Positions 1,148-37,117 of a DNA stretch of 64,000 nucleotides are shown piece by piece (position 1 is the stretch's first letter; every line of letters begins with the position of its first letter). This DNA is from Acidobacteriota bacterium (GTDB taxonomy: Bacteria > Acidobacteriota > Thermoanaerobaculia > Multivoradales > Multivoraceae), in NCBI GenBank assembly GCA_026707325.1, contig JAPOXA010000165.1, positions 22,481 to 86,480 of the forward strand, read 5' to 3'. Below the pieces are notes generated by a model, which saw only the letters and a program-made list of their open reading frames with translations, was not told the DNA's origin and ran no database searches. The position numbers and the translations under genes were made by a program.

Positions 1148-1596
1148 TCCAACTTCTCGTCCCGATGATCTCCCATGTCGAGGAGGAACGGGTCCTCCTT
1201 TGAGCCGGTGACGGCATCTTCGTCGTAGTAGCCGAGCCAGTCCTGCTGCTCTTGTTCTCTCGTGGCGATGATGTCCGGCAACGCGATGTCGAGCATGATC
1301 TTGGCCTTGATCGCTGGGTGAGCATTCGGGTCTGCGATGATCGCGCCGAGGCCGGCCATCGACCGTGAGCGCAGCCAGTACGCCTGATGCAGACGCGTCT
1401 CGGCTGATTCCGTGTACTCACGCCGGACAACCGCCTGGAAACGCTCATCGTGCTCCCAGCGCCTGACATCCGACTCTTCGACCCCGAGCTCCTTGGCGAT
1501 CTGCGAGTGCGGGAGACCTCGGAACCTCAGGAACGCGGCACGCTCAACGTTCTTGAGTAGATCGACGTCAGGAAGCGGCCGGTCGTCCTTGGGCAT
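1057..1596 (-). CDS. HTH DNA-binding protein (regulator or small-terminase-like)
   Basis: 179-aa ORF; LRFRGLPHSQIAKELGVEESDVRRWE helix-turn-helix; acidic C-terminus. Confidence 0.45.
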   Translation of the reverse strand: MPKDDRPLPDVDLLKNVERAAFLRFRGLPHSQIAKELGVEESDVRRWEHDERFQAVVRREYTESAETRLHQAYWLRSRSMAGLGAIIADPNAHPAIKAKIMLDIALPDIIATREQEQQDWLGYYDEDAVTGSKEDPFLLDMGDHRDEKLDYVRADLDEVPSSDDPVAEAKVIRLPAREA

Positions 1597-1605
1597 GGCC
1601 CAATG

Positions 1606-1851
1606 CTAGCGGATGGCCTTGACGACGTTCTCGAAACGAAGGATGTTGCCCGGAAGCATGTCCGCGGCCCACTGCCCGGGCGGCAGTGCTCGGATCACTT
1701 CGCGCTCCGTGGCTTGACCGCTGTTGAAGTCGATCAGAACCCGGGCGATGGACTCGAGGATGAAGGCGCAAGCCTCGATGTCCATTGCCAGCGAGACGAC
1801 TTGGTCCTTCTCCGGCGGCTTGGTGGAAGCTGGCTCCTCAGCGCCGGTCAC
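1606..1851 (-). CDS. hypothetical protein
   Basis: 81-aa ORF in minus-strand gene train, start overlaps stop of 1848..2129. Confidence 0.35.
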   Translation of the reverse strand: MTGAEEPASTKPPEKDQVVSLAMDIEACAFILESIARVLIDFNSGQATEREVIRALPPGQWAADMLPGNILRFENVVKAIR

Positions 1852-2129
1852 GCCGGCGCTTCCAGGCCGGCGAGCGCCTCGGCAACGGCTTCCGGCTTCT
1901 CAGCCTTCAACTGTTCGATCTTCGCTGCTCTGATTCGAGCACGCCGTTCCCGAGACAGCCTGACGTTGGTCTGCCGGCGAAGCTGCTTTGAGCAGGCGCT
2001 CGAGCAGGTCTTGGTCTTGGGCTGAGCCTCAATCCTCGGCCGAGGAATCTCGTTCTCGCACGAATCGACCGCACACTTGGTGATGACATCTGCCATGAGA
2101 TCTCTCCCCTTATACCGCAAGGCTGACAT
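1848..2129 (-). CDS. small Zn-ribbon protein with basic tail (4-member family in window)
   Basis: CAVDSCENEIP...KTKTCSSACSKQLRRQ motif shared with 38553..38759, 44255..44458, 52109..52642. Confidence 0.5.
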   Translation of the reverse strand: MSALRYKGRDLMADVITKCAVDSCENEIPRPRIEAQPKTKTCSSACSKQLRRQTNVRLSRERRARIRAAKIEQLKAEKPEAVAEALAGLEAPA

Positions 2130-2174
2130 TCGCCGCCAGCCTCAACGGCATTCTAGTCTAGTGGACACCAGCAG

Positions 2175-2624
2175 TCAACCCAATATCCAGATCTTGCTCC
2201 GCCACAAGTGAACGTCATCGCCGAGCTTGCGGAGAACTGACGGCGACCCAGGACGAACCGCACCGAACCGAAACGGCGTGTAGCAGCGGTGATCTCGAGG
2301 ATCGAGCAGCGCGGGTACATGATCCGGCAACTGCCAGTGATTCAACGGGAAACGCCCGGCATCTTTCGGCTGCACGATCTCCCGCAAAGTGCCGACGACG
2401 GCGATGCAGGGTGTCTTCTGGCCTCCGCGTTTGATCAAGGCGACAGAGTTGGCGGCGTAGTGGACCTTTGCGTTGTCGATTCGGACCAGTGCGCCCGGCG
2501 CAGTGTGGTGGTGAGCCCGCGAGTAGATGGGCTGTTGCCGGCGAAGGTCCAGTTGGTGGAATGTCAGGACCCCCGGAAGCCGGAGGTTCGGACGGACGGC
2601 GTAGGCGATGCCGCGGACAGGCAC
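2175..2624 (-). CDS. hypothetical protein
   Basis: 149-aa ORF co-oriented with neighbours; no motif recognised. Confidence 0.35.
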   Translation of the reverse strand: MPVRGIAYAVRPNLRLPGVLTFHQLDLRRQQPIYSRAHHHTAPGALVRIDNAKVHYAANSVALIKRGGQKTPCIAVVGTLREIVQPKDAGRFPLNHWQLPDHVPALLDPRDHRCYTPFRFGAVRPGSPSVLRKLGDDVHLWRSKIWILG

Positions 2625-2858
2625 CTACTCGACGCGCCAGCCCAGCTTCCGCTTTCGGATTGGGGCCCCCGGCCAGCACCCCCTTGGCCAGAAGATGGCG
2701 GAGAAAACGAATGCAGCCGGCACGGTCGGGAGCAACGCCCAGTACCAGCCGTAGTTGATCCACACCAGGACGATGACGGCCGTGTACGCGAGCGCGGCAT
2801 CAACCAGGAGCGACCAGATGAATGTCTTGCGGCCCCGCAGGGCTCCTTCTATGCCCAT
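2625..2858 (-). CDS. small membrane protein
   Basis: 77 aa with two hydrophobic spans (IWSLLVDAALAYTAVIVLVWI, ALLPTVPAAFVFSAIFW). Confidence 0.4.
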   Translation of the reverse strand: MGIEGALRGRKTFIWSLLVDAALAYTAVIVLVWINYGWYWALLPTVPAAFVFSAIFWPRGCWPGAPIRKRKLGWRVE

Positions 2859-3057
2859 CGCTCCCTCCTGTACTGCTGCCTCAGTTCACGTCGCCGGTGA
2901 CGTGCGAGCCGCTTCTTGATCTCGTGCGGCGACCTGGCGCCGCGCGGCCAGATGTAGTGGCGACGCCACGCAACGCACACCCAGTCCATCGCGTCATGCC
3001 CCACTGCCAACCGCTCTTTTCGGCGCATCGAACTATTACCTCGAGATCGACTCGGAC

Positions 3058-3468
3058 CTAGAGCTGGTCGATGTAAACATTCGCCCCTTCCAGTGCAGGG
3101 TTGTCGGCCCACGTCTTGGAGGCGTGGATAGAGGCAACCTGAGAGTCCTTGCTGTAGGCGATGCCGTCGAGAGCATCCATGATCGTCTTGAGCAGGTTAT
3201 CGAGGTCAGGACGCTGCGACACGTACTTGCCGGCAAAGGACCGGCGCTTGACCTTCGGCCAGGACTTCGCCATCAGCAGCGTGAAGTGGACCGTAATGCT
3301 GACCGGGCCTTCTAGCGGCTCGATGGAAGCGGCTTTGGCGTAGCCCTTGACGAGGGCCTCGTAGTCCCTGGTCTTGTTGGGCGTGTAGGTGATTCCGCGG
3401 CGAGTGACGCGGGGACGGCCTTTGCCGACCGGCCTTCCTGGGACAGTGAACTCGTACATCTTCGACAA
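3058..3468 (-). CDS. rusA: RusA-family Holliday junction resolvase
   Basis: MYEFTVPGRPVGKGRPRVT...RPDLDNLLKTIMDALDGIAY, typical RusA motifs; ATG at 3459 is the likelier start. Confidence 0.9.
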   Translation of the reverse strand: MSKMYEFTVPGRPVGKGRPRVTRRGITYTPNKTRDYEALVKGYAKAASIEPLEGPVSITVHFTLLMAKSWPKVKRRSFAGKYVSQRPDLDNLLKTIMDALDGIAYSKDSQVASIHASKTWADNPALEGANVYIDQL

Positions 3469-3521
3469 CTATAGCCAACTCGCCTATCACTTCAGCCATG
3501 ACTTACCCCCCTTTGAGGCTC

Positions 3522-3530
3522 AGTGTATCA
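3522..3530 (-). promoter_or_regulatory. extended -10 promoter (TGATACACT) upstream of rusA block
   Basis: TGn + TACACT read on minus strand, about 55 nt upstream of rusA; followed by GGGGGG Shine-Dalgarno. Confidence 0.35.
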
Positions 3531-3618
3531 CAGTTGTACACCGGCCAACTTGGCCGGTCGCTTGCGGCTGATACATTGACGGAACCAAGCAGTCCCTATC
3601 CTGACTGCCGGTAATCAA

Positions 3619-3649
3619 GAAGCCGCTGGCCTGACCAGCCAGCGGCTTC
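3619..3649 (-). terminator. intrinsic terminator-like hairpin
   Basis: 12-bp perfect stem GAAGCCGCTGGC/GCCAGCGGCTTC, 7-nt loop; followed on minus strand by UUGAUU, on plus by UUCC. Confidence 0.5.
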
Positions 3650-3659
3650 TTCCCGTAGC

Positions 3660-4122
3660 GCTGGCTTCGCCCATCCCTGTCCAGATTGGGGACAGGGTGA
3701 CCACCGCTTACCGCCGTGTACTACCGGCAGGGTGGCCGAACCGCGCGCGCCTCCGTGGGTCCGCCCGTCAGGGCGGTCCGGACAGTCCGGGATGCAGGGC
3801 TGGGCAGAGCCCGGGTTTCAAGGTGGAGGGACCACTCGGGCCTTGAAAGTCCCTGTCGCAATGCCTGGGGGTGTACCCCAGACCCAGCCCGAGTGCGGCT
3901 GCGCGCCGGCCGATTGACGCAGTGAGGCGAGCACCCCTTCGGGATTGTTCCGACGGTGTAGGCGGGGACTGTTCCCACCGCACGTCGGCTCCCAGGCTTT
4001 GGCTCTTCGCTTGTTCTCGACAAGACCAGCCGAGCGTACCACGGGCCATCGAGGGTGTCCACGCCTCGATGGCCCGTGGGAAGGCGGTGCTCGTCTTGTC
4101 GAGGGAAGAGCTAAAGCCAGTG
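3660..4122. ncRNA. candidate large structured RNA or DNA structural element (identity unknown)
   Basis: No credible ORF; nested helices 3995-4008/4105-4118 (13 of 14 pairs), 4016-4026/4093-4103 and 4039-4054/4064-4079 (both perfect), plus at least 6 more local hairpins. Confidence 0.3.
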
Positions 4123-4128
4123 GTCAGG

Positions 4129-4137
4129 ACTGTACCA
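4129..4137 (-). promoter_or_regulatory. extended -10 promoter (TGGTACAGT) pointing into the structured region
   Basis: TGn + TACAGT on minus strand at the right edge of the ORF-free region. Confidence 0.3.
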
Positions 4138-4314
4138 CACTTTGCGTACAACTGACGGTGGCGCTGCTGGCTCGGTTTCTGCACATCGTACAGATCGGAA
4201 GATCAAGCCGCTCGTCGACTTCAACGTACTTGCGCCAGTTCAAGCCGCCAGTGGACCACATGCGACAGGCAGTATCTGGACCAGTCCAGACATGGGCCAC
4301 GCGACTCTTACCGC

Positions 4315-4323
4315 TGCTATGAT
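4315..4323 (+). promoter_or_regulatory. extended -10 promoter (TGCTATGAT), near-leaderless start of 4330..4716
   Basis: TGn + TATGAT ends 6 nt before the ATG at 4330. Confidence 0.35.
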
Positions 4324-4329
4324 CGAGAC

Positions 4330-4716
4330 ATGACCGACTCTGAGGTTTTGCACCATGCGGACGGCCGCACCAGCGTTCCCGAAGACCTCTACAACCACAT
4401 CTTCAACGAGGGCAAGTGCGGCGACTGGTTCTGGTCGTCAGAGAACCGAGACGGCAAGGTTCACCGGACCATCTGGATTCTCGTACCTGCGGTCGGCAAT
4501 CCGGCGACTGGCAAGCCGCTGGCCGATCGAGGACTCGAACTGGCGATCGTGTTCCCGATTCACGGACCGAACAACTGGGCCGAACCAGGCGACATCAACG
4601 GCTGGGACGGGAACGAGGAAGCACCAACGCTGGAGCCGTCGATCTGGGTCAGAGGCGAGACCGACAACCCAGGCTGGCATGGGTTCTTTCGGCACGGCAG
4701 ACTGGTCTCAGCATGA
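4330..4716 (+). CDS. DUF6527-like protein
   Basis: 128 aa; ...INGWDGNEEAPTLEPSIWV...GWHGFFRHGRL resembles the W-x-NG-x3-PT-x-PS / WHG-x-L-x-G signature (from memory). Confidence 0.45.
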   Translation: MTDSEVLHHADGRTSVPEDLYNHIFNEGKCGDWFWSSENRDGKVHRTIWILVPAVGNPATGKPLADRGLELAIVFPIHGPNNWAEPGDINGWDGNEEAPTLEPSIWVRGETDNPGWHGFFRHGRLVSA

Positions 4717-4835
4717 CAGTCTTGGCTGACCACCGCCCCGTTCGACGACGACGATTCCGTTCTCCGGGATCAGCTCGGACTTGATCGCGGCTCGGTTTCC
4801 GCGCAGCGTCAAGCCCGGAGGGCGGTCACTTGGAG

Positions 4836-5945
4836 TCACAGGACTTCCGGGGCGCGGTCCGGGTAGAACGCCATCACCACGTCTGGCTTCTCGAGTCTCC
4901 GCAGAAACACGGGATCGGGGCTCCTTGACGTCCACGCGATGATCTGGTTTTCACCGATCGTCGAGATGACCGGCTGCGACACCTTGAGGTGCCCGACGTT
5001 CGTGGCCGGAGCCAGCACGCTGATCTTGCCGCCCTCGAACTTCGCCGCCGGGATAGCGCACTTCTGGACGGACGTGCTGTGACCCTCCCAGGCCGTCAAC
5101 ACGTCGTCGCCCTTGCGCTCGATGATGAACCGTCCGATTGGCTTCGGCAGCCGGAAGTCCGCGAGGTCCTCCAAGTAGACCTGCACGTTGGCGATCCTCG
5201 ACAGCAGCATCCGCCTCAGGCTGTAGGTCCAGGGCAGAGGCGTATTGGCGATCAGCTTGTAGGCGTGGAAGTACCAGTGCGGGCTCCGTGTCGTTCGGCC
5301 AGCCTCATAGTCCTGCGGCGTGACCGGCGCGGTCGCTTCGTCCCAGGTGCCGTTGATGCGATACGGGACGCCGAGCACTTCGGAGAGAAGCGGGCAGACC
5401 ATCGGATCGGCGATCGACGCGACGTTGGCCCTCATGCCGGTCGGAGGCAGGTACAGGCCGGACAGCTGGCGCACCGGCAAGGTGGTCTTCTCGTCGCCCC
5501 ACACGAACGACATCTCCTTGGGCTTGCGGCTGACGAACACCGACTGCAACGCCAGGAAGATCGTCCACTTGCGGAAGAAATCCCATTCGGGATTGAAGCC
5601 GCGAGCCCAAGCGCCGAGCGCGGCGGCCATGTACACCCGGCCCGTGTACAGGGGCGAGTTGAACTCTCTCAGGCCCCAGCCATAGCTCTTGTACAGATCG
5701 AAGAACTGCTCCAGGCCCGACCAGTCTCCGCGGGCTGCCCGCAGGCCCGGGCAGAAGTTGCCCGAACCGTCGACCATCAGATCGGGCAGAGCATAGTCCT
5801 GAGGCCGACAGTAGTGTGACCACTCGGCGGCCAGGTTGGCCGCTGCGTCGTCGCCGGCAATGGCCTTGGCCCTGTACCACATTCCGACGTCACCAGCGAC
5901 GCGGGCGCCGAGGTTCCGTTCAGTCTCAGAAAGGGATGTCGTCAT
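4836..5945 (-). CDS. hypothetical protein (369 aa)
   Basis: Start MTTSLSETERN at 5945, overlapping ssb 3' end; upstream part of the 494-aa track ORF is Arg-rich read-through. Confidence 0.55.
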   Translation of the reverse strand: MTTSLSETERNLGARVAGDVGMWYRAKAIAGDDAAANLAAEWSHYCRPQDYALPDLMVDGSGNFCPGLRAARGDWSGLEQFFDLYKSYGWGLREFNSPLYTGRVYMAAALGAWARGFNPEWDFFRKWTIFLALQSVFVSRKPKEMSFVWGDEKTTLPVRQLSGLYLPPTGMRANVASIADPMVCPLLSEVLGVPYRINGTWDEATAPVTPQDYEAGRTTRSPHWYFHAYKLIANTPLPWTYSLRRMLLSRIANVQVYLEDLADFRLPKPIGRFIIERKGDDVLTAWEGHSTSVQKCAIPAAKFEGGKISVLAPATNVGHLKVSQPVISTIGENQIIAWTSRSPDPVFLRRLEKPDVVMAFYPDRAPEVL

Positions 5946-33706: not shown

Positions 33707-36700
33707 CTAGGCGTCGGCCTGTTGACGCTTCCAACGGAGGTACTGCTGCCGGCAATATTTGTCGACCCGGACGTCGGGATCGCGCCAGATGACCTCGAAC
33801 TCTCGGTGGCACTTCCGCCCCATGAGGTCCCAATACTTCGCTCGTGCGATCTTGTTCGCTTTCTCAATGTTCGTCGGTGAAATGCGGCAGGCGATCGCGC
33901 ACAGTTCCGGCCAGATGTCGAGACTCGGCGGCCACGGAAGGTAGTCGTCTTCGCCATCGACGCCTCGAACCTCTGTCAGTTCGCCTGGACGGGACACGAG
34001 CTTTCCCCTTGGGCGCACTCGAGTAGCGCCGCAGGCTGGACATGACTCCATGTCTTTCTCGAGTACGAAACCGCACCGGCACCGCATCTCCGCAGCCTTG
34101 CGCTTGTAGCTCACCGTGCTGACGCGCCTGGGGCGTGTACTCAGCTTTGGACAGCCCTCTGCGAAGAACCTGAAGATCTCGTCCATGAACCGGAGGTAGT
34201 TGCCCGAGTTATGAGTCAGGAGCCCTTCCACAGTGAAGCGATTTCTGGGTCCGGCTCCACGAATGTCCCATACCTCCCTTTCGGTTTCAACGACGGCAGG
34301 GACCACCGTTCGGCGATCTCTTCGTCCGTCAAGCCCTCGACCATCAACGCTCTGAGCGTGGCATCTCGATAGCGGACCTCCGGGTACTTGATCTTGAACG
34401 CATTCATACGCGGAGACCACTTGGTTCCGCGCCTGTTGTTCGTGTTGAGAATCCGAGTAGCCCAACGCAGGTTCCCAGGCTCGTAGTGACCGTCGTTCTC
34501 GACCCGGTCTAGATCGGGCAACGGAGGCTCGGGCACTCCTAGATGAGCGACGACCCATCGCGCGGCAACGGCCACCGACTTCCAGCGAAACTCGATGCCA
34601 CGACCGCCATAGTTGTCGTATCCAACCGCGTTGGGGTTTGTGCAGCGCTGCTTCGCCGCGGCAAGACGCGCGTACAGCCACGAGGGGTAAGCCTTCGGCC
34701 GTGCCTGATTGCACCATCGGCAACCCTGGCTGCGGCCTCGTCTTAGATTCTGATACGAGACGACGGAGCGAAAGCCACAGGTCACGCACTCGCAGATGAC
34801 GTACAGCTTCCTTTCGTCTCGATGGCCCAGACGAAGAGCCGTAGCGGAAACGACCTTGACTGAGCCTAAGCGCTTGCCCTCCAAATCCGGTCTCTGCGAT
34901 TCCAAGGCGTCGATCCGCGGCCTCCCGTAGCGTGGCCCAGCCTTCTGATGTGTAGACCTTGTGATCTTCAGTTCCGATGAGTCCTGCATACTCGATGACC
35001 TTCCGCCTGCCAACGCGGACAGCGCCACAATGATGAACCCACTCAACGCCGTCCCAAAGCAGATCGGTGCCTAGTATATCTCGAATACACTGCAACCCAC
35101 GATCTCTTGTTAGCACTCGCTGGTCAGCCGCAATGCAGTGGTCGATGAGCAAGCCGTACTTCTTGCCTGAAGCGGCGCGCATGACCCGGCCGAGACGCTG
35201 AATCTCCAGGTCGACTGCCTTCCTCAGTGTGTAGGCGTCGATCATGACTCGGGTCTGCGGCACGTCGAAGCCCTTGGCCAACGACGAACAAGAGATAAGA
35301 CCTAGGTACTTTCCCTCTCTGTACGCATCAATGATCGGCTGCTTCTCCTTCCACTTCTGCTTGTAGGTGATCGAGCGGAAGTCATGGCCACGACGCTGGA
35401 ACCGCTGTGCGAGGTCCTGGCAATCCGCCACTGATGGACAGAAGACGATCGTCTGCACTGGCTGGCCGTAGAACTGGTCGCACCGCGCCTCCCACTCACC
35501 GAGGATGTCGCCCGTGATTGCCTGGACACGCCGGCCGAGGTCTTCTCGAACGTACTCCCCATCGCTCTTGCGCTGAACACCAACCGTGTTGACCTGGATG
35601 TTGGGGGCAACCACTTTGATCGGACTCAGGTAGCTGCGCCTGACCAGTTCGTTCGTGTTCGAGGCATTCACCACGTCCTGGTAGTGCTTGCCGCACTTGA
35701 ACGGCGTTGCCGACAGACCGAGCAGCGTGATGTCCTTCTCCCTGATCTGGCGCAAGATAGAAGTCCACATCGTGTGACAGTTGCCAGCCACGCAGACTTT
35801 CCCGTTTCGGCGAACCACAATCGCCCCGGAAGGAACTTCGACGCAGTAAACGGGGCCACAGTACGGCACCCTCGACCTTCGGGCAGTCTGAGTTGAAACG
35901 CTGTCAACATTCCAGCCAATGAAGAGACGCCAAATGTCTCTGTGCTGCTCAGACTCATGGACCTGCCGAGTCTTTCGGCAACGGCAACCAGCGATAGCAG
36001 CCAGCGCCTGATAGTAGTCGGCGACCGACTCATCGGCCGTCGAGAAATAGCCCAACCCCTCTGAAACCTCGCTACCGTCCCAGTGCAGCATCTCCTTCAG
36101 CACTGCCAGCGCTGACGACGCGGACATCGAACCAGGAGGCATCAGGCTCGGAAGATGCAGCATGGCAGCGTCAACTCCATACACGAAGAACCGTCGCTTT
36201 GCTCGATTGCACTTTCCCTCTTTCCACGAGAAGCTACCGCGCTTCATGAGCGCTAGGAACCGGTCGATCTTCCGCTGGCGACTGAATGAGAAAGCCAGCG
36301 TCGCTCTTCCATCTGCCCATCTATAATGAAGGTTGCCGTCCGCCTGAAACGCAATCGCCAGCCTGTGGAATGTCCGAAGCTCCACGGGTGGCATCGACGA
36401 CTTTCCTGAAACAGGGATGCGCCGATAACCATTCAGCTTGACATCCTTGGCACGGTCTTTGTGGACTCTACCAACGGGAGTAGTCGTAACGACATCATGG
36501 TTCGGTGTCACCAGAAGATCGGCATGTCGATGCTGGATGTGAACAAGCTCTCCATCGAAGTTCTGCTTGATCTTCCTGGCCGGACTCGTGAAGTCGATGC
36601 TGCCATCTGAGTGCCACTGCGCGACTTTCTCGCTGCCAAGATCAGCGAAGGGCACAAAGCCAGATTCCGTCAAAATCTCCGTGCTCGCGTGAAAACACTC

Positions 36701-37117
36701 GTCGATGACCACAAGATCGGGAGGCTCTTCGCGTCCCGTGACCTTGTTGATGTAGTCGAAACCTCGACGGATCAGGGTCTGAGCCGAGCAGATCACCGTG
36801 CGGGACCAAAGGCCACGGGTCATTCCGTGCATGAGCACCCCGTGGCGGATCCCATAGCTGGAGAACCGTCGGCTGGTCTGGCGCACCAGTTCACGCTGGT
36901 CACAGATGAAGAGAGAGTGGCTCCCCTTCGTCTGTGACGACTTGATGATCGCCATCGACATTTCGGTCTTTCCCGATCCTGGCGGAGCGCAGAGGACCAG
37001 CCGCTTAGCGCCGGCCCGGTACTTTCGCCGAAGCTCGTTGACCGCTGTGATCTGGTAGTCGTAGAGGGTCAGACCAGATGCCGGCTGACCCGACTCATCA
37101 AGCGTGATCTGGCTCAA
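33707..37117 (-). CDS. SF2 (DECH-box) phage helicase interrupted by two inteins
   Basis: APPGSGKT (I), VVIDE|intein|CH (II), LSAT (III), QRLGRVMR (VI); C-terminal CRCG...CPACG ribbon. Confidence 0.9.
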   Translation of the reverse strand: MSQITLDESGQPASGLTLYDYQITAVNELRRKYRAGAKRLVLCAPPGSGKTEMSMAIIKSSQTKGSHSLFICDQRELVRQTSRRFSSYGIRHGVLMHGMTRGLWSRTVICSAQTLIRRGFDYINKVTGREEPPDLVVIDECFHASTEILTESGFVPFADLGSEKVAQWHSDGSIDFTSPARKIKQNFDGELVHIQHRHADLLVTPNHDVVTTTPVGRVHKDRAKDVKLNGYRRIPVSGKSSMPPVELRTFHRLAIAFQADGNLHYRWADGRATLAFSFSRQRKIDRFLALMKRGSFSWKEGKCNRAKRRFFVYGVDAAMLHLPSLMPPGSMSASSALAVLKEMLHWDGSEVSEGLGYFSTADESVADYYQALAAIAGCRCRKTRQVHESEQHRDIWRLFIGWNVDSVSTQTARRSRVPYCGPVYCVEVPSGAIVVRRNGKVCVAGNCHTMWTSILRQIREKDITLLGLSATPFKCGKHYQDVVNASNTNELVRRSYLSPIKVVAPNIQVNTVGVQRKSDGEYVREDLGRRVQAITGDILGEWEARCDQFYGQPVQTIVFCPSVADCQDLAQRFQRRGHDFRSITYKQKWKEKQPIIDAYREGKYLGLISCSSLAKGFDVPQTRVMIDAYTLRKAVDLEIQRLGRVMRAASGKKYGLLIDHCIAADQRVLTRDRGLQCIRDILGTDLLWDGVEWVHHCGAVRVGRRKVIEYAGLIGTEDHKVYTSEGWATLREAADRRLGIAETGFGGQALRLSQGRFRYGSSSGPSRRKEAVRHLRVRDLWLSLRRLVSESKTRPQPGLPMVQSGTAEGLPLVAVRASCRGEAALHKPQRGWIRQLWRSWHRVSLEVGGRCRAMGRRSSRSARASVARSRPGRERRSLRAWEPALGYSDSQHEQQARNQVVSAYECVQDQVPGGPLSRCHAQSVDGRGLDGRRDRRTVVPAVVETEREVWDIRGAGPRNRFTVEGLLTHNSGNYLRFMDEIFRFFAEGCPKLSTRPRRVSTVSYKRKAAEMRCRCGFVLEKDMESCPACGATRVRPRGKLVSRPGELTEVRGVDGEDDYLPWPPSLDIWPELCAIACRISPTNIEKANKIARAKYWDLMGRKCHREFEVIWRDPDVRVDKYCRQQYLRWKRQQADA
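34208..35137 (-). other. intein 2 (310 codons) in helicase
   Basis: Starts CIAADQRVLT after LLIDH, block B GTEDHKVYT, ends VWDIRG...FTVEGLLTHN followed by S. Confidence 0.75.
34216..34989 (-). CDS. HNH-family homing endonuclease encoded in an alternate frame inside intein 2
   Basis: GKRLGSVKVV...CECVTCG...CRWCN...YGGRGIEFRW...LDRVENDGHYEPGNLRWATRILNTNN; frame differs from the helicase frame. Confidence 0.6.
   Translation of the reverse strand: MQDSSELKITRSTHQKAGPRYGRPRIDALESQRPDLEGKRLGSVKVVSATALRLGHRDERKLYVICECVTCGFRSVVSYQNLRRGRSQGCRWCNQARPKAYPSWLYARLAAAKQRCTNPNAVGYDNYGGRGIEFRWKSVAVAARWVVAHLGVPEPPLPDLDRVENDGHYEPGNLRWATRILNTNNRRGTKWSPRMNAFKIKYPEVRYRDATLRALMVEGLTDEEIAERWSLPSLKPKGRYGTFVEPDPEIASLWKGS
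35780..36697 (-). other. intein 1 (306 codons) in helicase motif II
   Basis: Starts CFHASTEILT after VVIDE, ends KVCVAGN followed by CH; LAGLIDADG-like LAIAFQADGN and LKEMLHWDGS. Confidence 0.8.

What the first reader, a model, noticed from the sequence alone, without database searches (positions are those of the whole stretch)
34216..35046. HNH endonuclease gene overprinted in a different reading frame inside helicase intein 2
The helicase frame stays open through intein 2. However, its residues from about 750 to 944 are an Arg/Ser/Pro-rich string with no domain-like character. A shifted frame over the same DNA encodes a convincing phage HNH-type endonuclease (GKRLGSVKVV, CECVTCG, CRWCN, YGGRGIEFRW, LDRVENDGHYEPGNLRWATRILNTNN). 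That ORF stops 8 nt before the intein C-terminal Asn codon. Only the roughly 75 N-terminal and 25 C-terminal intein residues look like splicing blocks. The homing enzyme therefore appears to be a separate, out-of-frame gene nested in a mini-intein, while selection keeps the host frame stop-free for about 200 codons. Inteins normally carry the endonuclease in frame.
Basis: partly seen in the sequence, partly recalled or inferred. Interest (0 to 1): 0.6.

Follow-up and report, generated by a model that had tools for sequence, protein, structure and literature searches.

The report
Helicase intein with out-of-frame nuclease gene
A self-splicing protein insert (intein) in this phage's helicase gene carries its homing-nuclease gene in a shifted reading frame of the same DNA; selection keeps both frames open, and hundreds of other phages share the layout, which was first described for other inteins in 2025-2026.

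Summary
The SF2 helicase ORF (33707..37117, minus strand, 1136 aa) carries two inteins. Intein 2 (helicase aa 661-970, 35137..34208) has about 90 N-terminal and 30 C-terminal residues that fold as a mini-intein. Its middle ~190 residues are Arg/Ser-rich and predicted disordered. The +1 frame of that DNA encodes a 257-aa phage HNH-type homing endonuclease (ATG 34989 to TGA 34216).

This is not a sequencing artefact. The host frame has 0 stops where about 10 are expected (P about 1e-5 to 7e-4).

The layout is shared. In 83 of 87 loci carrying a homologue of the nuclease, it lies +1 inside an open 750-1200-aa ORF, either a helicase or a family A DNA polymerase. In the middle stretch, substitutions fall on third positions of the nuclease frame.

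A 520-aa intein-free helicase allele (92% identical, no gaps) matches the predicted spliced product exactly.

Many relatives have an AAGGAGGT ribosome site plus ATG built into the intein's block-B codons. This copy has only a weaker GGAAGG.

The general kind, an out-of-frame endonuclease gene inside an intein, is already published (Gosselin et al. 2025; Phillips et al. 2026). This element belongs to a different and much larger intein/nuclease family.

Splicing, internal translation start and nuclease activity are inferred, not shown.

The parts
33707..37117 (-). SF2 (ResIII/DEAD + Helicase_C) phage helicase precursor ORF, 1136 aa, with two inteins. The predicted spliced product is 520 aa.
   Evidence: Pfam ResIII 4e-17 and Helicase_C 2e-11; phrog_16 DNA helicase 8e-50. 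The spliced sequence aligns without gaps to the 520-aa intein-free homologue P0121 at 92% identity.
34208..35137 (-). Intein 2: helicase aa 661-970, 310 aa, Cys1 ... His-Asn followed by Ser+1. It sits just after helicase motif VI (GLLIDH|SGNYLRF).
   Evidence: Blocks: A CIAADQRVLT, B TEDH, F/G VWDIRGAGPRNRFTVEGLLTHN. In the AF2 model, residues 1-80 have pLDDT of 92 or more and 281-310 have 84-96. Foldseek matches Ssp DnaB, DnaX, Npu DnaE and Mtu RecA mini-inteins at probability 1.0. The boundaries are fixed by the intein-free allele.
34216..34989 (-). Nested HNH-type homing endonuclease gene, 257 aa, in the +1 frame relative to the helicase. ATG 34989 is the likely start; the open frame runs back to TTG 35046. 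Stop is TGA 34218-34216.
   Evidence: phrog_374 HNH endonuclease 4.4e-28. AF2 mean pLDDT 87. BFVD Foldseek hits to phage HNH/AP2 homing endonucleases at E about 1e-11. 875 homologues, and this copy keeps all 15 invariant residues.
34996..35004 (-). Weak Shine-Dalgarno-like GGAAGG(T), formed by the Arg-Lys-Val codons of the intein, 8-9 nt upstream of ATG 34989.
   Evidence: The sequence reads ggcGGAAGGTcatcgagtATG. In relatives the same position is AAGGAGGT (Lys-Glu-Val codons). A strong SD is found in 22 of 32 contexts with the ATG and 0 of 21 without it (Fisher 2.5e-7). Other genes of this phage use AAGGAGG-type sites.
34862..34989 (-). N-terminal true dual-coding overlap of about 43 codons. 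The host frame encodes conserved intein block B and the end of the N-splicing lobe (intein residues 50-92). The +1 frame encodes the HNH N-terminal tail.
   Evidence: Host-frame alignment A2/A3 is conserved to about residue 92. HNH residues 1-30 have low pLDDT, and their conservation (M.DS.QPQTT.S) mirrors YAGLTATPDH.
34286..34870 (-). Host-frame read-through linker (helicase aa ~750-944). It is Arg/Ser-rich, not conserved and predicted disordered. Only the +1 (HNH) frame is under amino-acid constraint here.
   Evidence: pLDDT about 40-55. Mean HNH-frame identity to relatives is 42% against 22% in the host frame, and substitutions concentrate at HNH codon position 3. Composition.
34208..34290 (-). 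C-terminal dual-coding overlap of about 25 codons. The host frame encodes intein blocks F/G. The +1 frame encodes the HNH tail KPKGRYGTFVEPDPEIASLWKGS*.
   Evidence: The tail is conserved across the HNH family as a shadow of R.VWDILNAGP..RFT..GLLVHN.
35780..36697 (-). Intein 1 (helicase aa 141-446, 306 aa), which splits the DECH box (VVIDE|CHTMW). No alternative-frame ORF was seen in it.
   Evidence: TIGR01445 intein_Nterm at 0.0024, below its cut-off. PHROG matches to intein-bearing RNR/PhoH/ThyX families. Boundaries fixed by the intein-free allele.

Best explanation
Intein 2 of this phage helicase is a class-1 mini-intein. The loop between its splicing blocks B and F holds a complete homing-endonuclease gene, on the same strand but in the +1 frame.

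**Proposed mechanism**
- Ribosomes translating the helicase read straight through the nuclease gene in the host frame.
- This yields a ~190-residue basic, disordered linker that connects the two lobes of the splicing domain.
- The intein then excises itself, linker included, and restores the 520-aa helicase.
- A minority of ribosomes start internally at ATG 34989, which is formed by a conserved Tyr codon (tAT Gnn) eight codons before block B and preceded by GGAAGG.
- These ribosomes make a free 257-aa nuclease with a Zn-ribbon and an I-HmuI/AP2-like HNH module.
- The nuclease would cut intein-less helicase alleles in co-infecting relatives and so drive homing of the whole unit.

**What is shown here**
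- The two-frame anatomy.
- Selection against host-frame stops.
- Amino-acid constraint on the HNH frame only in the middle stretch.
- A HINT fold at the two ends.
- Exact boundaries, from an intein-free allele.
- Conservation of the layout across a large family of helicase and PolA inteins.

**What is inferred**
- Splicing.
- Internal initiation.
- Nuclease activity and homing.
For: - **Anatomy and family hits:**
- **Coding signal:** the frame switches to the HNH frame in the middle stretch.
- **Stop avoidance in this copy:** P = 1e-5 to 7e-4.
- **Shared layout:** 83 of 87 homologous loci have the HNH +1 inside an open 750-1200-aa ORF. These ORFs are SF2 helicases (49) and family A polymerases (24).
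- **Stop avoidance across the family:** over 69 distinct copies, expected host-frame stops have a median of 12.4 and observed stops are 0. None of 4786 AA/AG/GA codons is preceded by a T-ending codon, against 3275 of 13344 elsewhere.
- **Selection:** in the close pair L013/L018, differences per HNH codon position are 0.16/0.09/0.52, with HNH identity 84% against host-frame identity 40%.
- **Structure:** the AF2 intein model has folded ends and a disordered middle, and Foldseek matches mini-inteins. The AF2 HNH model has pLDDT 87 and matches phage HNH/AP2 homing endonucleases.
- **Boundaries:** the intein-free allele P0121 is 520 aa, 92% identical and gapless. At the DNA level the spliced sequence and the allele are both 1563 nt.
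- **Start site:** SD and ATG co-vary, Fisher 2.5e-7.
- **Other elements excluded:** no intron or other Rfam family, and no internal promoter.
Against: - There is no expression, splicing or cleavage evidence.
- This copy's ribosome site (GGAAGG) is weaker than the AAGGAGGT of many relatives. Its closest relatives (L007, L008) lack this ATG and must start further upstream.
- Neither the HNH nor intein 2 reaches any Pfam or NCBIfam model. No solved structure matches the HNH.
- By my reading of the motif (LDRVENDGHYEPGNLRW), the canonical first His of HNH is an invariant Arg. The nearby His168 is Asn in the Sodalis phage relative. Catalysis therefore cannot be assumed.
- Two relatives (L005, L026) have a broken host frame.
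Confidence: 0.85

Rival explanations
1. Assembly or sequencing artefact. Two compensating indels have shifted an ordinary in-frame HNH domain out of the intein frame.
For: Two relatives do show single frame breaks (L005; L026).
Against: If the HNH were really in frame, the present host frame would be a random alternative frame with about 10 expected stops. It has none. The same +1 offset recurs in 83 of 87 independent loci, including finished phage genomes such as Streptococcus phage Javan113 and Gardnerella phage AB1.
Confidence: 0.01
2. The nuclease is not translated from its own start. It is made by programmed +1 ribosomal frameshifting out of the helicase/intein frame, giving an N-extein/N-intein/HNH fusion.
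For: The overlap is on the same strand. This copy's SD is weak, and its nearest relatives lack the ATG at this position. In this copy the HNH frame is open for 19 codons upstream of the ATG.
Against: In many relatives an HNH-frame stop lies 1-2 codons upstream of the ATG, and a canonical AAGGAGGT sits 8 nt before it. SD and ATG co-vary. HNH residues 1-30 are unstructured tail, consistent with a free N-terminus. I did not search systematically for a conserved slippery site.
Confidence: 0.06
3. In this particular phage the nested gene is an inactive relic or a non-cutting DNA-binding protein. The intein then persists only because precise loss is rare.
For: The SD is weak. The canonical HNH His is replaced by Arg throughout the family. 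There are no Pfam or PDB matches. The homing-cycle model predicts such decay after fixation.
Against: The ORF is intact and keeps all 15 invariant family residues. Third-position-biased substitution shows purifying selection on the HNH frame in the family. An intein-free allele at 86% nt identity exists, so targets for homing are present in related phages.
Confidence: 0.08
4. The insert is a group I intron carrying an HNH ORF, as the equivalent insert in Sodalis phage SO-1 is annotated in RefSeq.
For: The RefSeq note on SO-1 gp38/gp39 reads 'type I self-splicing intron'. HNH genes are common in phage group I introns.
Against: The host frame is open and kept so by selection. The ends fold as a HINT domain with Cys1, TxxH and HN|S. 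The insert is exactly 930 nt (310 codons), bounded at codon edges relative to the empty allele. No Rfam intron family matches at E up to 1.
Confidence: 0.01

Closest known systems
Actinobacteriophage inteins with an out-of-frame, same-strand endonuclease VII-like homing endonuclease (Gosselin, Arsenault and Gogarten, bioRxiv 10.1101/2025.01.02.630785)
   Same: An intein splicing domain whose middle region is unstructured in the host frame, while another frame of the same strand encodes an HNH-superfamily homing endonuclease. A free-standing endonuclease is proposed to have invaded a mini-intein.
   Different: - Their inteins are about 265 aa, beginning CMTGDTPV and ending LVSHN.
- Their nuclease is a short ~100-aa endonuclease VII type (DHDH...LC..CN), described as being in 'frame 3'.
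- Here the intein family is unrelated in sequence, and the nuclease is a 257-aa Zn-ribbon plus I-HmuI/AP2-like protein in the +1 frame.
- Here its start, SD and stop are embedded in splicing blocks B and G.
- Here the hosts are helicase and PolA of phages from many phyla.
Cyanobacterial dnaX intein with an out-of-frame LAGLIDADG endonuclease (Phillips, DeSimone and Gogarten, bioRxiv 10.64898/2026.09.14.751524; first proposed by Gorbalenya 1998, cited there)
   Same: The endonuclease frame is under purifying selection, while the overlapping intein frame is free to vary provided it stays open. The layout is interpreted as secondary invasion of a mini-intein.
   Different: It has a LAGLIDADG enzyme, is cellular (cyanobacterial) rather than phage, and uses a different frame relation.
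ShiLan domain: hidden out-of-frame HNH in a mycobacteriophage DNA methylase (Arsenault et al., Genes 2025, PMC11855218)
   Same: The insert is read through without stops in the host frame, and a shifted frame encodes an HNH. The same question arises of how the hidden gene is translated.
   Different: ShiLan has no splicing domain and is thought to remain in the mature protein. No RBS was found and leaderless GTG initiation was proposed. Here a complete HINT domain flanks the gene, and relatives carry a canonical SD plus ATG.
[quoted passage not shown]
   Same: [quoted passage not shown]
   Different: There the host gene is broken into two ORFs and relies on trans-splicing. Here the host frame stays continuous, so cis-splicing is possible. 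This is the unbroken alternative outcome in their model.

Membership tests
Class 1 intein (HINT splicing domain) | N-terminal nucleophile (Cys/Ser1, block A) | tested here: met
   Cys661 begins CIAADQRVLT. Cys1 is invariant in 50 aligned relatives.
Class 1 intein (HINT splicing domain) | Block B TxxH motif | tested here: met
   TEDH at intein residues 56-59. T56 and H59 are invariant.
Class 1 intein (HINT splicing domain) | C-terminal His-Asn followed by a Cys/Ser/Thr +1 extein residue | tested here: met
   ...LLTHN|SGNYLRF. Asn310 is invariant.
Class 1 intein (HINT splicing domain) | HINT fold | tested here: met
   The AF2 ends have pLDDT 84-96. Foldseek matches Ssp DnaB, DnaX, Npu DnaE and Mtu RecA mini-inteins at probability 1.0, E 1e-4 to 1e-3, target TM 0.41-0.56. 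Sequence models do not detect it: no Pfam or NCBIfam hit, and no PDB hit by sequence profile.
Class 1 intein (HINT splicing domain) | Precise removal restores a conserved, colinear host protein | tested here: met
   The spliced 520-aa product aligns to intein-free P0121 (520 aa) with 0 gaps and 92% identity.
Class 1 intein (HINT splicing domain) | Protein splicing demonstrated | not testable with these tools
   Needs expression of the precursor.
HNH (beta-beta-alpha-metal) homing endonuclease | Significant similarity to HNH endonuclease families | tested here: met
   phrog_374 at 4.4e-28, phrog_3377 at 4.8e-17, phrog_2081 at 2.7e-11. BFVD Foldseek matches proteins annotated as phage HNH or AP2 homing endonucleases at E about 1e-11. 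Pfam HNH_3 matches only 2 of 53 members, at 0.12.
HNH (beta-beta-alpha-metal) homing endonuclease | Canonical catalytic His / Asn / His(Asn) triad | tested here: inconclusive
   The model has beta 159-162, beta 174-177 and helix 179-184. Asn173 is invariant, and Asn182 and Asn185 nearly so. By my own alignment to the HNH_3 consensus (from memory), the first His position is the invariant Arg162. His168 in the hairpin is Asn in Sodalis phage gp39.
HNH (beta-beta-alpha-metal) homing endonuclease | Site-specific cleavage of the empty allele | not testable with these tools
   An empty allele exists for the assay (L088).
Intein with out-of-frame homing endonuclease ('non-canonical intein' in the sense of Gosselin et al. 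2025) | Endonuclease ORF lies between the splicing blocks, in a frame other than the intein's, and the host frame is uninterrupted | tested here: met
Intein with out-of-frame homing endonuclease ('non-canonical intein' in the sense of Gosselin et al. 2025) | Homology to the published endonuclease VII-type examples | tested here: not met
   The published alignment shows a different intein and a DHDH-type endonuclease VII. phrog_1035 (endonuclease VII) is only a weak hit at 4.8e-5. The design is the same but the lineage is different.

The most novel reading that the evidence does not exclude
The window is one member of a single, old and very large lineage of phage inteins. At least 550 stretches in IMG/VR and 875 protein clusters belong to it. 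The hosts are SF2 helicases and family A polymerases of phages of Firmicutes, Actinobacteria and Acidobacteria-linked hosts.

In this lineage the homing endonuclease has been kept permanently as a +1-frame overlapping gene. Its ribosome-binding site and start codon are written into the block-B codons, and its stop codon into block G. On this reading the two-frame layout is a stable, selected design: nuclease dosage is uncoupled from the host protein, and a disordered linker is tolerated by splicing. It would not be a brief intermediate on the way to a fused or split intein.

The same unit has also hopped between at least four staggered insertion points within eight residues of one helicase motif.
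Probability: 0.4. Interest if true: 0.6.

Novelty: new member of a known kind. Interest (0 to 1): 0.45.

Why it matters
- **Annotation.** Gene callers and curated models miss this unit. There are no Pfam or NCBIfam hits. Metagenome pipelines call the nuclease and cut the helicase, and RefSeq calls the equivalent insert in Sodalis phage SO-1 an intron.
- **Intein evolution.** It is a concrete case for the 'splicing domain first, endonuclease invades later' view. A mini-intein apparently tolerates a ~190-residue unstructured insert.
- **Overlapping genes.** It is a clean natural example of long same-strand dual coding. One frame is constrained only to avoid stops, which gives a measurable signature: no T-ending codon before AA/AG/GA codons.
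- **Testability.** An empty allele (L088) and E. coli phage relatives (Dhillonvirus) make splicing, internal initiation and homing directly testable.
- **Scale.** The size of this family contradicts the current description of such layouts as rare.

Tried and rejected
- **Close relatives of the nuclease.** The single-sequence scan of IMG/VR found none. The alignment-based scan was needed.
- **Curated protein models.** Pfam and NCBIfam gave nothing for the HNH or for intein 2, even at E up to 1.
- **Solved structures.** The PDB profile search and Foldseek-PDB gave no meaningful match for the nuclease. The PDB profile search found nothing for the intein; only the fold comparison did.
- **First AF2 submission.** It was rebuilt without them.
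- **Crude start-site survey of the window.** Most 'first start codon' calls were wrong, so only clear ATG genes were used to show that the phage uses AAGGAGG-type sites.
- **Internal promoter.** None was found in front of the nested gene.
- **Group I intron.** Considered and rejected.
- **Gorbalenya 1998.** The paper could not be read and is cited second-hand.
Full report
**1. The observation**

On the minus strand, ORF 33707..37117 is open for 1136 codons and encodes an SF2 helicase. It matches ResIII at 4e-17, Helicase_C at 2e-11 and phrog_16 'DNA helicase' at 8e-50. ORF 34216..35046 lies inside it, shifted by +1.

Its product matches PHROG HNH endonuclease families: phrog_374 at 4.4e-28, phrog_3377 at 4.8e-17 and phrog_2081 at 2.7e-11. 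No Pfam model matches it.

In the exteins the GC-rich codon position is position 3 (about 0.75). Between host residues ~750 and ~950 it moves to host position 1, which is position 3 of the HNH frame. That stretch of the host-frame product is 18% Arg with net charge +23. Only small details differ: 35046 is TTG, not ATG.

**2. Is the open host frame more than chance?**

I held the HNH protein fixed and redrew synonymous codons, using either extein or own codon usage. The host frame stays free of stops with P = 7e-4 to 1e-5. None of the 64 HNH codons that begin AA, AG or GA follows a T-ending codon, whereas 45 of 211 other codons do. The third frame has 11 stops.

This also bears on the paired-indel artefact. 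If the HNH were truly in frame, the present host frame would be a random alternative frame and would carry about 10 stops.

**3. Boundaries and identity of the intein**

Intein 2 is helicase residues 661-970 (35137..34208). It runs from Cys1 in CIAADQRVLT through TEDH (block B) to VWDIRGAGPRNRFTVEGLLTHN, followed by Ser.

Removing intein 2 and intein 1 (aa 141-446, which splits the DECH box) gives a 520-aa protein. A metagenomic protein of exactly 520 aa, P0121, aligns to it without a single gap at 92% identity. At the DNA level the two are 1563 nt each and 86% identical. P0121 sits on a contig with the same neighbouring gene types, L088. A close relative with both sites empty therefore exists, and the junctions are exact.

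An AF2 model of intein 2 in the host frame was built on 48 relatives.
- Residues 1-80 have pLDDT of 92 or more.
- Residues 281-310 have pLDDT 84-96.
- Residues ~90-280 have pLDDT about 40-55.

Foldseek matches the folded part to mini-inteins at probability 1.0: Ssp DnaB, Spirulina DnaX, Npu DnaE and the Mtu RecA splicing domain. Sequence models do not see it. It has no Pfam or NCBIfam hit and no PDB hit by sequence profile. No Rfam family, including introns, matches the region.

**4. The nested protein**

An AF2 model built on 53 homologues has mean pLDDT 87. The first ~30 residues are unstructured and the rest is folded, including a beta-beta-alpha unit at 159-184. Against predicted viral structures it matches proteins annotated as phage HNH or AP2 homing endonucleases at E about 1e-11. 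Nothing in the PDB matches, by fold or by sequence profile.

One caveat concerns the motif, LDRVENDGHYEPGNLRW. By my own alignment to the usual HNH_3 consensus (from memory), an invariant Arg occupies the position of the first catalytic His. The neighbouring His168 is Asn in a more distant relative. Nuclease activity is therefore inferred from family annotation and from the element's distribution. It is not read from a canonical active site.

**5. Relatives**

tblastn against phage genomes places the best hits inside annotated DNA polymerase I genes of Streptococcus and Gardnerella phages. In Javan113 and vB_Gva_AB1 the HNH is +1 relative to an uninterrupted ~960-aa polymerase ORF. The flanking intein blocks are very like those here: CIAEGELVLT ... 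TPDH ... YDIRNAGPHHRFTVSNKLVHN|C.

The protein database holds 875 homologues at E<1e-5. Nearly all are 240-285 aa and were called as separate genes. Their conserved N-terminus (M.DS.QPQTT.S) and C-terminus (KPKG.YGT.STPDP.IASL.KDS*) are the +1-frame shadows of intein block B and blocks F/G.

An alignment-based scan of IMG/VR found 550 related stretches, of which 80 were fetched. Together with seven other loci, the 87 break down as follows:
- 83 have the HNH +1 inside an open 750-1200-aa ORF.
- 1 has it at +2 (Sodalis phage SO-1).
- 1 has the N-part of the host fused to the HNH frame (L026).
- 2 are free-standing (L073, L085).

The covering ORFs are SF2 helicases like this one (49), family A polymerases (24), or unassigned (10).

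Over 69 distinct copies with GC 38-63%, expected host-frame stops have a median of 12.4 and observed stops are zero. None of 4786 AA/AG/GA codons follows a T-ending codon, against 3275 of 13344 elsewhere. The third frame has a median of 13 stops.

**6. Which frame is under selection**

In the central stretch, the window's HNH-frame identity to relatives averages 42%, against 22% in the host frame. In the close pair L013/L018, differences per HNH codon position are 0.16/0.09/0.52, with HNH identity 84% against host-frame identity 40%.

The middle of the intein is thus constrained as an HNH gene. In the host frame it is constrained only to remain open. At both ends the overlap is truly dual-coding: about 43 codons over block B and the end of the N-lobe, and about 25 codons over blocks F/G.

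**7. How the nuclease is probably made**

The +1-frame ATG at 34989 is created by a conserved intein Tyr codon (tAT Gnn), eight codons before the block-B Thr. In 32 of 53 distinct family contexts this ATG is present. In 22 of those, a strong SD lies about 8 nt upstream, typically AAGGAGGT spelled by Lys-Glu-Val codons. None of the 21 contexts without the ATG has one (Fisher 2.5e-7). In many of the ATG copies an HNH-frame stop lies 1-2 codons upstream.

This argues for internal initiation rather than frameshifting. In this window the site is weaker: GGAAGG from Arg-Lys-Val codons. Clear ATG genes of this phage use AAGGAGG-type sites. No promoter-like site precedes the nested gene, so it is presumably read from the helicase mRNA. 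The window's closest relatives (L007, L008) lack this ATG and must start further upstream, so the start is not fixed across the family.

**8. What is known**

The design is published.
- Gosselin, Arsenault and Gogarten (bioRxiv 2025) report actinobacteriophage inteins with an out-of-frame, same-strand endonuclease VII-like gene, and antisense LAGLIDADG and Vsr-like genes. They propose invasion of inteins by free-standing endonucleases.
- Their aligned sequences show a different intein and a short DHDH-type endonuclease VII. The element here is not their lineage.
- Phillips et al. (bioRxiv 2026) show the same frame-specific selection for an out-of-frame LAGLIDADG gene in the cyanobacterial dnaX intein. 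They trace the idea to Gorbalenya 1998, a paper I could not read.
- Arsenault et al. 2025 describe a hidden out-of-frame HNH in a methylase insert that lacks splicing domains.
- Dassa et al. 2009 describe the broken-gene outcome, a split intein plus a free-standing endonuclease.
- Earlier notes of this scan report the same layout in PolA and TerL inteins of 64 or more genomes. I treat these as leads only.

**9. Verdict**

It is a new member, from a distinct and very large family, of a recently described kind. The mechanism steps (cis-splicing with a disordered 190-residue linker, internal initiation, homing) are inferred and directly testable. Interest is moderate. A specialist would not be surprised by the layout itself. 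The size, age and host range of this family would be of interest, as would the embedded SD/ATG and the staggered helicase insertion points.

Noticed in passing
window 34208-35137 compared with loci L008-L056 (junction alignment): Related inteins carrying the same nuclease family occupy four staggered insertion points within eight residues of the same helicase segment after motif VI: GKK|F, GKKF|G, GLLI|D and LIDH|S in the numbering of the empty allele. Each has Cys or Ser at +1. The unit appears to have re-inserted at shifted positions in one conserved target.
   Followed up: partly
L088 (JGI 3300012932, Ga0157522_1014962), 4001-5563: A closely related phage contig has the helicase with both intein sites empty (520 aa, 92% aa and 86% nt identity). 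Nucleotide identity is lowest (0.75-0.78) in the 120 nt around the intein-2 site. This could reflect co-conversion or target-site divergence.
   Followed up: partly
window 35780-36697 (-): Intein 1 splits the DECH box (VVIDE|CHTMW). It is 306 aa with an apparently in-frame middle domain. Only sub-threshold intein model hits were found, and no long alternative-frame ORF was seen.
   Followed up: partly
L002 = Sodalis phage SO-1 NC_013600.1, gp38/gp39 (locus 1349-4537 and 2833-3591): RefSeq annotates the polymerase insert as a 'type I self-splicing intron' with an HNH gene. In fact the polymerase frame is open (1062 aa) through a different intein (CLHRHTQVLT ... FLVAHN|C). The nested nuclease is in the +2 frame and has the motif DRIDTDGNYEPGNLRF, with no His. 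This looks like an independent instance of the same design, and the annotation is probably wrong.
   Followed up: partly
L005 (ENA MUNK22 scaffold_228) 3949-3955; L026 (IMG/VR 3300002307_001609) 2309-4255: Two relatives break the rule. L005 has a 1-nt frame break inside the N-intein (VWDGVDF* / LDHCG). L026 has the N-extein and N-intein fused in frame to the HNH. These are either assembly errors, pseudogenes, or steps towards split or fused forms.
   Followed up: no
Protein database hits P0001-P0120: Most homologues of the nuclease sit on contigs of only about 1 kb. This suggests that assemblies often break at this polymorphic insert. Gene callers also report the nuclease frame and lose the host gene.
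   Followed up: no
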